64,000 nt of DNA from Escherichia coli. Its GTDB lineage: Bacteria; Pseudomonadota; Gammaproteobacteria; Enterobacterales; Enterobacteriaceae. Below are positions 63,606-63,702 of the stretch, in pieces. The stretch lies in NCBI RefSeq assembly GCF_050920415.1, contig NZ_CP169309.1. The stretch is one strand, 5' to 3'. A program made the position numbers and the translations under genes. Every line of letters starts with the position of its first letter. Positions within the stretch are counted from its first letter, which is position 1. The notes beneath the pieces were generated by a model that saw only the letters and a list, made by a program, of their open reading frames with translations, was not told the origin of the DNA and searched no databases.

Positions 63606-63629
63606 TTCTCGCTTTGATGTAACGAAAAA

Positions 63630-63651
63630 CCTCGCTCCGGCGGGGTTTTTT
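63630..63651 (+). terminator. Intrinsic terminator after rpmBG (cctcgc-tccg-gcgggg + T6)
   Basis: Hairpin plus T-tract directly after rpmG stop. Confidence 0.75.
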
Positions 63652-63702
63652 GTTATCTGCTTGCCCCCATATTGACTGCATCTGTTCATTCCCGGAGATG
63701 CT

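What the first reader, a model, noticed from the sequence alone, without database searches (positions are those of the whole stretch)
63625..63655. The same terminator hairpin occurs after rpmG and after IstR
The 24-nt sequence aacctcgctccggcggggtttttt occurs both at 375-398 (IstR terminator) and at 63628-63651 (rpmBG terminator), about 63 kb apart. It may be convergent use of a stable hairpin with a UCCG loop, or a small repeated terminator module. Practically, it can seed cross-matches in sRNA-target or repeat searches.
Basis: seen in the sequence. Interest (0 to 1): 0.2.

Follow-up and report, generated by a model that had tools for sequence, protein, structure and literature searches.

The report
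Two terminators sharing one stock hairpin
The same 24-base sequence really does end both the IstR small RNA and the rpmB-rpmG ribosomal-protein transcript in this E. coli window, but it is an ordinary, very widely used transcription-terminator hairpin that each site has kept for a long time, not a special or mobile element.

Summary
Observation confirmed. AACCTCGCTCCGGCGGGGTTTTTT occurs exactly at 375-398 and 63628-63651 (+), and nowhere else in the window at up to 3 mismatches. Site 1 is the 3' end of IstR (Rfam RF01400, 144.7 bits). Site 2 lies 22 nt after the rpmG stop codon and about 50 nt before mutM. Both fold as CCUCGC-UCCG-GCGGGG followed by U6, a classic Rho-independent terminator.

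The identity is old. The same hairpin ends IstR in at least 14 enterobacterial genera, and it follows rpmG in 9 genera, including Erwinia and Izhakiella.

The hairpin is also generic. The others include prophage tail operons, tRNA terminators and non-enterobacterial bacteria.

A complete E. coli genome has only the two exact copies. In Klebsiella and Citrobacter the rpmG hairpin has drifted while IstR's has not, so the two are not obligatorily co-maintained.

The shared flanks (A-tract, U6GU4CUG) are rare elsewhere (about 3%). They hint that IstR's terminator began as a copy of the rpmG type. Parallel changes in Escherichia and Salmonella weakly suggest occasional gene conversion (permutation P=0.06).

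Low interest. The practical cross-matching caveat is real.

The parts
375..398 (+). Copy 1 of the 24-mer, the Rho-independent terminator of IstR-1/IstR-2. A-tract 374-376, stem 377-382 paired with 387-392, UCCG loop 383-386, U-tract 393-398.
   Evidence: Exact match. It is the end of the Rfam RF01400 hit. Fold energy -15.4 kcal/mol, z -3.6.
269..398 (+). IstR small RNA gene. The long IstR-2 form spans 269-398. The short IstR-1 form is about 324-398, inferred from its published 75-nt length.
   Evidence: Rfam RF01400, 144.7 bits against a gathering score of 45, model positions 1-130 of 130. Positions 325-345 repeat window 66-86 at 20 of 21 bases, which is the IstR/tisAB-5'UTR complementarity read on the other strand.
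63628..63651 (+). Copy 2 of the 24-mer, the intrinsic terminator/attenuator between rpmG and mutM. A-tract 63625-63629, stem 63630-63635 paired with 63640-63645, loop 63636-63639, U-tract 63646-63651.
   Evidence: Exact match. Fold energy -19.1 kcal/mol, z -5.5. It sits between annotated rpmG and mutM in E. coli records.
63181..63605 (+). rpmB (63181-63417) and rpmG (63438-63605), the transcription unit that copy 2 terminates.
   Evidence: ORFs and translations. L33 is identical to that of a K-12-like strain. RefSeq annotation of the orthologous locus.
63704..64000 (+). 5' part of mutM, the downstream gene reached by read-through of copy 2.
   Evidence: ATG at 63704. MutM annotation. Operon yicR-rpmB-rpmG-mutM with at least three mRNAs (PMC4725251).
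371..409 (+). Full stretch at the istR locus that resembles the rpmG locus: ACGAAA, hairpin, T6, aTTgcCTGCTT.
   Evidence: Alignment A1. Cross-genus listing.
63622..63662 (+). Full stretch at the rpmG locus that resembles the istR locus: ACGAAAAA, hairpin, T6, gTTatCTGCTT.
   Evidence: Alignment A1. Cross-genus listing.

Best explanation
These are two separate Rho-independent terminators, both anciently conserved, that use the same generic hairpin. In RNA, the A-tract, CCUCGC-UCCG-GCGGGG (six pairs including one U.G, closed by a UNCG-type tetraloop) and U6 form a stable stem-loop followed by a U-tract. That structure releases RNA polymerase. Copy 1 defines the common 3' end of IstR-1 and IstR-2. 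Copy 2 ends most rpmB-rpmG transcripts and lets a fraction read through into mutM. The identity in this genome is not a recent duplication, a mobile element or a sign of functional coupling. Each site has simply retained the same hairpin under purifying selection since before the genera diverged. The hairpin itself is one of the commonest stock terminators of Enterobacterales and their phages.

Shown: the sequence, the fold, the position at the ends of transcription units, orthologous conservation, and the many unrelated occurrences. Inferred: termination in vivo and the purifying selection.

The origin is unresolved. I lean towards an ancient copy: IstR's terminator derived from the older rpmG-type module when the tisB-istR cassette arose in Enterobacteriaceae (about 0.5). 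Independent convergence is the alternative (about 0.35).
For: - **Exact repeat:** confirmed.
- **Fold:** hairpin plus U-tract, z -3.6 and -5.5.
- **Position:** copy 1 is the end of Rfam istR. Copy 2 lies between rpmG and mutM.
- **Pairing conserved:** 54 of 54 cells paired in 9 natural variants, with double changes at two pairs.
- **Spread of the 20-mer:** Of these, 39 are IstR sites in 13 genera, plus Klebsiella. Twelve are rpmG sites in 9 genera, including the Erwiniaceae Erwinia and Izhakiella. Seventy are other sites in 67 distinct contexts.
- **Other contexts:** prophage tape-measure, tail-fibre and minor-tail genes, tRNA 3' flanks in Burkholderiales and Eubacteriales, and Sphingomonas, Brucella and Chryseobacterium.
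- **Mobile DNA:** partial matches in 1050 phage records and 289 plasmid records, including 44 from Rhizobium.
- **No obligatory co-maintenance:** the rpmG hairpin differs from the IstR hairpin by 2 bases in Klebsiella and 4 in Citrobacter, and is unrelated in a Cedecea-type locus. IstR keeps the E. coli sequence in those genera.
Against: - **Flanks argue against plain convergence.** The flanks are more alike than a terminator needs. Both families share an A-tract and T6GT4CTG. That tail (within 1 mismatch) occurs at only 2 of 69 other sites with the same hairpin. The looser T5-7GT4 pattern occurs at 5 of about 203 unrelated terminator-like sites.
- **The target is unusually repeated.** Two other strong terminators of the window have 1 place per E. 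coli genome. The target 36-mer has a median of 5, and I could not identify the other three or so places.
- **Parallel derived changes.** A loop C to U change at both loci in Salmonella, and T to A after the U-tract at both loci in Escherichia, are not expected under fully independent evolution.
- **No direct evidence of termination here.** No transcript 3'-end data were examined.
Confidence: 0.82

Rival explanations
1. Ancient paralogy. The IstR terminator is a copy of the roughly 36-nt rpmG-type module (A-tract, hairpin, U6GU4CUG), or both derive from one pool. The copy was made when the tisB-istR cassette arose in an ancestor of Enterobacteriaceae, and both copies have been conserved separately since. 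This concerns origin and is compatible with the functional account above.
For: The 16-nt hairpins are identical, including the idiosyncratic U.G pair. The shared A-tract and T6GT4CTG tail are seen at both loci in most genera, yet at only about 3% of other sites. The rpmG version exists in Erwiniaceae, where no IstR-type hit was found, so it is older. The two loci lie 42-63 kb apart on the same strand.
Against: The same hairpin arises in clearly unrelated contexts and phyla, so convergence is demonstrably possible. A long U-rich tail may be selected in any strong terminator. No homology extends further: the GCTTTG..GT.AC match is not conserved in other genera. The flank test was chosen after seeing the data.
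Confidence: 0.5
2. Independent convergence. Both sites arrived separately at the same optimal hairpin (GC stem, UNCG loop, A/U-tract extension), because the space of short strong terminators is small.
For: There are 67 distinct non-IstR, non-rpmG contexts with the identical 20-mer, including distant phyla and tRNA terminators. Phage and plasmid occurrences are widespread. Several genomes carry the hairpin at two or three unrelated sites.
Against: The tail shared beyond the U-tract has only about 3% background frequency. The U.G wobble sits at the same stem position in both. Control terminators show no second copy in E. coli.
Confidence: 0.35
3. Concerted evolution. Occasional short-tract gene conversion between the two direct repeats, which share 24-34 identical bases, keeps them alike within a lineage.
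For: In Salmonella both loci have a UUCG loop (istR L144-L147; rpmG L136-L143, with the MutM cluster named S. enterica). In Escherichia both have GTTAYCTGC after the U-tract, where other genera have GTTTTCTG at both. Same-genus similarity is 32.7 against 32.1 +/- 0.37 for permuted genera, P=0.059.
Against: The P value is not significant. In Klebsiella and Citrobacter the hairpins differ by 2 and 4 bases. Within Escherichia the istR tail varies (GTTATC, GTTACC, GTTGCC, ATTGCC) while the rpmG tail stays GTTATC. Loop position 2 of UNCG is a free site that also varies in rpmG of other taxa. The one within-species test failed, because the lineage carrying the rpmG loop variant lacks istR.
Confidence: 0.1
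4. A mobile or recently duplicated terminator cassette (MITE- or REP-like) inserted at both places.
For: The hairpin travels with prophage tail modules. The target 36-mer has a median of 5 BLAST places per E. coli genome against 1 for controls.
Against: Both sites are orthologously fixed across many genera. The rpmG site is present in 5424 of 5426 E. coli genomes. Only 2 exact copies exist in a complete genome. Similarity ends within about 12 nt on each side, with no inverted-repeat termini or duplications. IstR is absent only together with the whole tisB-istR cassette.
Confidence: 0.02
5. Functional coupling. A trans-acting factor (Hfq, an RNase, or RNA polymerase with sigma-54) recognises this exact sequence, and selection therefore keeps both copies identical.
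For: Rfam labels IstR an Hfq-binding RNA. An RpoN gSELEX-chip study lists peaks in both the istR/tisB and rpmG/mutM spacers (PMC8743547).
Against: The RpoN motif reported at istR (TCGGCACGAATTTTGAC) maps to window 270-286, about 100 nt from the hairpin. The shared sequence has no sigma-54 -24/-12 match by eye. The two hairpins differ in Klebsiella and Citrobacter.
Confidence: 0.03

Closest known systems
IstR-1/IstR-2 antitoxin sRNA of the tisB-istR type I toxin-antitoxin locus (Rfam RF01400; Vogel et al. 2004, from my own knowledge; review PMC4147584)
   Same: Copy 1 is the terminator of this known RNA. The hit covers the full model at 144.7 bits, and the divergent tisAB 5'UTR target repeat is present at 66-86.
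   Different: Nothing differs at the family level. This strain has ATTGCC after the U-tract where K-12 has GTTATC. The third stem pair is U.G where the Rfam consensus has C-G.
Terminator/attenuator between rpmG and mutM in the yicR(radC)-rpmB-rpmG-mutM complex operon (Gifford & Wallace 1999, from my own knowledge and cited in PMC4725251)
   Same: Same position and gene order. The operon is reported to give at least three mRNAs, which is consistent with a partial terminator before mutM.
   Different: I could not read the primary paper, so I did not confirm that this exact hairpin is the mapped 3' end.
Generic intrinsic terminators with UNCG tetraloops and an A-tract/U-tract extension (bidirectional-type terminators)
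   Same: GC-rich 6-bp stem, UCCG loop, U6 tail, and an upstream A-run able to extend the stem. Pairing is preserved in variants.
   Different: The U.G wobble makes the reverse-strand hairpin weaker (a C/A mismatch). Neither site has a convergent gene needing the reverse orientation.
Concerted evolution of dispersed duplicates in enterobacteria (for example tufA/tufB and rrn operons; from my own knowledge)
   Same: Direct repeats on one chromosome, with some lineage-specific shared states.
   Different: The repeat is only 24-36 nt, about the minimum length for homologous exchange. Statistical support is weak (P=0.06), and the copies diverge in Klebsiella and Citrobacter.

Membership tests
Rho-independent (intrinsic) terminator | GC-rich stem-loop immediately followed by a run of U | tested here: met
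   CCUCGC-UCCG-GCGGGG followed by U6 at both sites. Also listed by the terminator scan.
Rho-independent (intrinsic) terminator | Fold more stable than shuffled sequence | tested here: met
   -15.4 kcal/mol (z -3.62) and -19.1 kcal/mol (z -5.48) for the 31-nt segments.
Rho-independent (intrinsic) terminator | Located at the 3' end of a transcription unit | tested here: met
   Copy 1 ends at the last position of the Rfam istR model. Copy 2 starts 22 nt after the rpmG stop codon.
Rho-independent (intrinsic) terminator | Base pairing maintained through substitutions in relatives | tested here: met
   54 of 54 cells paired in 9 variants. Two pairs carry changes on both sides. All slid controls are at or below 63% paired.
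Rho-independent (intrinsic) terminator | Transcripts actually end there | not testable with these tools
   No 3'-end data were examined. Literature support is indirect (PMC4725251; the IstR length is from my own knowledge).
IstR sRNA (Rfam RF01400) | Score above the curated gathering threshold over the full model | tested here: met
   144.7 bits against 45, model positions 1-130 of 130, at 269-398 (+).
IstR sRNA (Rfam RF01400) | About 21 nt of complementarity to the divergent tisAB 5' UTR | tested here: met
   Window 325-345 and 66-86 are 20 of 21 identical as direct repeats, so the minus-strand tisAB RNA is complementary to IstR. TisB is called next to istR in related loci.
Dispersed repeat or mobile element (REP/ERIC/MITE-like) | Many copies per genome | tested here: not met
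   Two exact 20-mer copies in the complete E. coli E69 chromosome. There is a median of 5 partial BLAST places, but the others are not exact.
Dispersed repeat or mobile element (REP/ERIC/MITE-like) | Defined termini (inverted repeats or target duplications) and presence/absence at orthologous sites | tested here: not met
   Similarity fades within about 12 nt of the hairpin. The rpmG site is present in 5424 of 5426 genomes. IstR is lost only with the whole cassette.
Concerted-evolution (gene-conversion) pair | Paralogues within a lineage more alike than across lineages | tested here: inconclusive
   Same-genus score 32.7 against 32.1 +/- 0.37, P=0.059, over 8 genera. The signal is positive in Escherichia and Salmonella and negative in Klebsiella and Citrobacter.

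The most novel reading that the evidence does not exclude
The two terminators are paralogous copies of one roughly 36-nt module. IstR captured the older rpmBG-type terminator when the tisB-istR cassette was born. The copies have since exchanged sequence by rare short-tract gene conversion. That would explain the loop C to U change at both loci in Salmonella and the T to A change after the U-tract at both loci in Escherichia.
Probability: 0.12. Interest if true: 0.35.

Novelty: already known. Interest (0 to 1): 0.12.

Why it matters
Biologically it matters little. Both elements are known, ordinary terminators, and the sequence they share is a stock hairpin.

Three modest points remain:

1. **Cross-matching is a real hazard.** The 24-34 nt identity produces cross-matches in homology searches (2054 extra places). 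It could in principle also do so in hybridisation-based or short-read analyses. Both spacers appear as peaks in one gSELEX-chip data set (PMC8743547), although the motif reported there lies outside the repeat.
2. **The right null model.** Exact 20-24-mers recur among terminators by restricted sequence space, so a random-sequence null overstates the significance of such repeats.
3. **A possible small case study.** If the ancient-copy or gene-conversion reading were confirmed, it would show how a new sRNA gene acquires its terminator.

Tried and rejected
- **L33 look-up.** My recalled L33 sequence was wrong and matched nothing. The window's L33 equals that of a K-12-like strain, so there is no anomaly.
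- **IvbL search.** IvbL was too short for the homologue search, and I made one coordinate slip.
- **Upstream similarity.** MAFFT suggested an extra match, GCTTTG..GT.AC, with a 16-nt gap. The rpmG 3' UTR differs in other genera, so I treat it as chance and ran no formal test.
- **The other BLAST places.** I looked for the other three or so places per E. coli genome. A prophage/plasmid variant, CCCTGCTCCGGCAGGGTTTTTTGTTATCC (L003), explains some genomes but not K-12. The K-12 Rac prophage has no copy. This remains unresolved.
- **Sigma-54 site in the repeat.** The published motif at istR lies at 270-286, not in the repeat. By eye the repeat lacks a GG-N10-GC match.
- **Within-species gene-conversion test.** I used the common rpmG loop variant CCCG (594 genomes at 99% or more). 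The strain examined lacks tisB-istR altogether, so the test was impossible.
- **Primary paper.** Gifford & Wallace 1999 (PMC93923) is not held.
- **Rfam scan of another context.** Rfam found no family for a further recurrent context of the hairpin.

Full report
**1. The observation**

The 24-mer AACCTCGCTCCGGCGGGGTTTTTT occurs at window 375-398 and 63628-63651, both on the + strand. There is no other match at up to three mismatches, and none occurred in 100 shuffles (sequence read).

The window is E. coli of a somewhat divergent lineage. The istR region is 100% identical to one genome and about 94% identical to K-12.

**2. What the two sites are**

Rfam's istR model (RF01400) matches 269-398 (+) over its full length at 144.7 bits, against a gathering score of 45. 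The 24-mer is therefore the very 3' end of IstR. The IstR-1 5' segment (325-345) is repeated at 66-86 in 20 of 21 bases. That is the known IstR/tisAB-5'UTR complementarity seen from the other strand (biology in PMC4147584).

The second copy starts 22 nt after the rpmG stop codon. rpmB is at 63181-63417 and rpmG at 63438-63605. The copy ends 52 nt before the mutM ATG at 63704, in the annotated rpmG-mutM spacer.

Both copies fold as CCUCGC-UCCG-GCGGGG followed by U6. The upstream A-run can extend the stem. Fold energies are -15.4 kcal/mol (z -3.6) and -19.1 kcal/mol (z -5.5). In nine natural variants of this hairpin all 54 pair cells remain paired, with double changes at two pairs.

These are textbook Rho-independent terminators. 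The yicR-rpmB-rpmG-mutM operon is reported to yield at least three mRNAs (PMC4725251). That fits a leaky terminator before mutM. I could not read the primary mapping paper.

**3. How far the similarity extends**

In the window the flanks add ACGAAA(AA) upstream and TT..CTGCTT downstream. In K-12 the loci share 34 identical bases, AAACCTCGCTCCGGCGGGGTTTTTTGTTATCTGC.

Consistent with this, a 161-nt rpmG query finds 2054 second places in 5424 E. coli genomes at E<=1e-5. The window's istR query, whose tail is ATTGCC, finds almost none.

**4. Genome-wide and cross-species search**

I classified the 121 sites by their flanks.

| Class | Sites | Where |
|---|---|---|
| IstR 3' ends | 39 | Citrobacter, Enterobacter, Siccibacter, Kosakonia, Leclercia, Phytobacter, Pluralibacter, Escherichia, Pseudenterobacter, Superficieibacter, Raoultella, Lelliottia, Trabulsiella |
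| rpmG terminators | 12 | Escherichia, Pluralibacter, Phytobacter, Pseudocitrobacter, Trabulsiella, Kosakonia, Kluyvera, and the Erwiniaceae Erwinia and Izhakiella |
| Other | 70 | 67 distinct contexts |

The "other" class includes:
- a large family in prophage tail operons;
- the 3' flanks of tRNA genes in a Burkholderiales MAG and a Eubacteriales MAG;
- Sphingomonas, Brucella, Pseudorhizobium, Chryseobacterium and others.

Downstream genes of the prophage family match tape-measure, tail-fibre and minor-tail PHROGs.

Partial matches occur in 1050 phage records and 289 plasmid records, 44 of them from Rhizobium. The complete E. coli E69 chromosome has only the two expected exact copies (L052 istR, L053 rpmG).

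So the hairpin is a generic, recurrent terminator. A random-sequence expectation is the wrong null for it.

**5. Are the two copies kept identical?**

I obtained unbiased orthologues through IlvB and MutM homologues.

| Genus | istR hairpin | rpmG hairpin | Differences |
|---|---|---|---|
| Escherichia | CCTCGCTCCGGCGGGG | CCTCGCTCCGGCGGGG | 0 |
| Salmonella | CCTCGCTTCGGCGAGG | CCTCGCTTCGGCGGGG | 1 |
| Klebsiella | CCTCGCTCCGGCGGGG | CCCCGCTTCGGCGGGG | 2 |
| Citrobacter | CCTCGCTCCGGCGGGG | CCCTGCCTCGGCGGGG | 4 |

A Cedecea-type rpmG locus has an unrelated hairpin, CCCGGC-TCAG-GCCGGG.

IstR's hairpin is therefore very stable, the rpmG hairpin turns over, and identity is not obligatory.

Two parallel derived states stand out. 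In Salmonella the loop is UUCG at both loci. In Escherichia the tail is GTTAYCTGC at both loci, where other genera have GTTTTCTG at both.

A permutation test of same-genus against cross-genus similarity over eight genera gives 32.7 against 32.1 +/- 0.37, P=0.059. This is suggestive at best. Within Escherichia the istR tail varies while the rpmG tail does not.

**6. Origin**

Both families share an A-tract and the tail T6GT4CTG. That tail (within one mismatch) is present at 15 of 39 IstR sites and 5 of 12 rpmG sites. It is present at only 2 of 69 other sites with the same hairpin. A T5-7GT4 tail occurs at 5 of about 203 unrelated terminator-like sites in 1.25 Mb of held loci.

The rpmG version also occurs in Erwiniaceae, where no IstR-type hit appeared, so it is the older of the two.

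I therefore lean towards IstR's terminator having begun as a copy of the rpmG-type module (about 0.5). Convergence remains entirely possible (about 0.35), given the many unrelated occurrences. Ongoing gene conversion gets about 0.1. A recent or mobile insertion is essentially excluded.

**7. Controls and loose ends**

Two other strong terminators of the window (11113-11148 and 59021-59056) have a median of one place per E. coli genome under the same BLAST settings. The target 36-mer has five, with a range of 2-9.

Some extra places are a prophage/plasmid variant, CCCTGC-TCCG-GCAGGG followed by TTTTTTGTTATCC. K-12's extra places remain unidentified, and the Rac prophage has none.

**8. Literature**

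No paper in the library links the two terminators. An RpoN gSELEX-chip study lists peaks in both spacers (PMC8743547). Its motif at istR, TCGGCACGAATTTTGAC, maps to window 270-286 on the minus strand, which is outside the repeat. The array used 60-mer probes. Cross-hybridisation through the 34-nt identity is conceivable but is my speculation.

**9. Verdict**

This is a real repeat with ordinary biology. Two known terminators have conserved the same stock hairpin. The practical caveat about cross-matches is valid.

Noticed in passing
L009, L011, L016, L025, L034, L039, L041, L058, L067, L073/L074, L076, L082, L085, L088, L089, L106, L108, L113, L114, L123 (at the 20-mer match given): A recurrent prophage intergenic cassette. 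The identical hairpin followed by TT(A)TTGCC(C/T)GGAGAAA..ATG sits directly before non-homologous tail genes: tape measure (phrog_1107 and phrog_24), tail fibre (phrog_1591/1980) and minor tail protein (phrog_14). The CCGGAG that holds the Shine-Dalgarno sequence is the reverse complement of CUCCGG in the hairpin. The tail TTATTGCC also follows the hairpin in Sphingomonas, Xenorhabdus and Biostraticola loci.
   Followed up: partly
L158 20967-21210 (E. coli E41-1); also L133; window 393-420 for comparison: About 20% of E. coli genomes lack tisB-istR (4359 of 5426 hit). In E41-1 the empty site reads ...gatgatgcTTTATTGCCTGagTTTCAG..., so the junction falls inside what would be IstR's U-tract and the terminator goes with the cassette. 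The same strain carries the rpmG hairpin variant with a CCCG loop, an allele found at 99% or more identity in 594 genomes.
   Followed up: partly
window 270-286 (-) and the rpmG-mutM spacer 63606-63703: A published RpoN gSELEX-chip screen (PMC8743547) reports holoenzyme peaks in both the istR/tisB and rpmG/mutM spacers of K-12. The motif listed for istR (TCGGCACGAATTTTGAC) lies in the IstR-2 5' part, not in the repeat. Whether the weaker mutM peak owes anything to the shared 34 nt is unknown.
   Followed up: partly
L059 1171-1325 (+), L086 7776-7950 (-), L112 361-535 (-), L087 4502-4767 (+; two tandem copies 111 nt apart), L047 1598-1772 (-): A conserved promoter-like block (ACGCG-TACGCAAA...TGTAATCTGATAAGAGTG), then about 45 nt, then the same hairpin. 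It occurs in Rahnella, Proteus, Ewingella, Serratia and Xenorhabdus and looks like an unannotated small RNA. No Rfam family matches.
   Followed up: partly
window 399-63627; tRNA-Sec at 38522-38612 (-): The two terminators are 63.3 kb apart here but about 42.2 kb apart in K-12 (3,851,352 against 3,809,172 in the table of PMC8743547). This strain therefore carries about 21 kb of extra DNA between them. The selC tRNA-Sec gene, a classic island integration site (own knowledge), lies in the interval. I did not examine this.
   Followed up: no
window 652-690 (+): The ivbL attenuator terminator (AAAACCCCGCCGGCGCAAACCGGGCGGGGTTTTTCG) sits 250 nt downstream of copy 1. Its hairpin was the most frequently recurring other hairpin among the held loci, simply because the IstR loci include it.
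   Followed up: no
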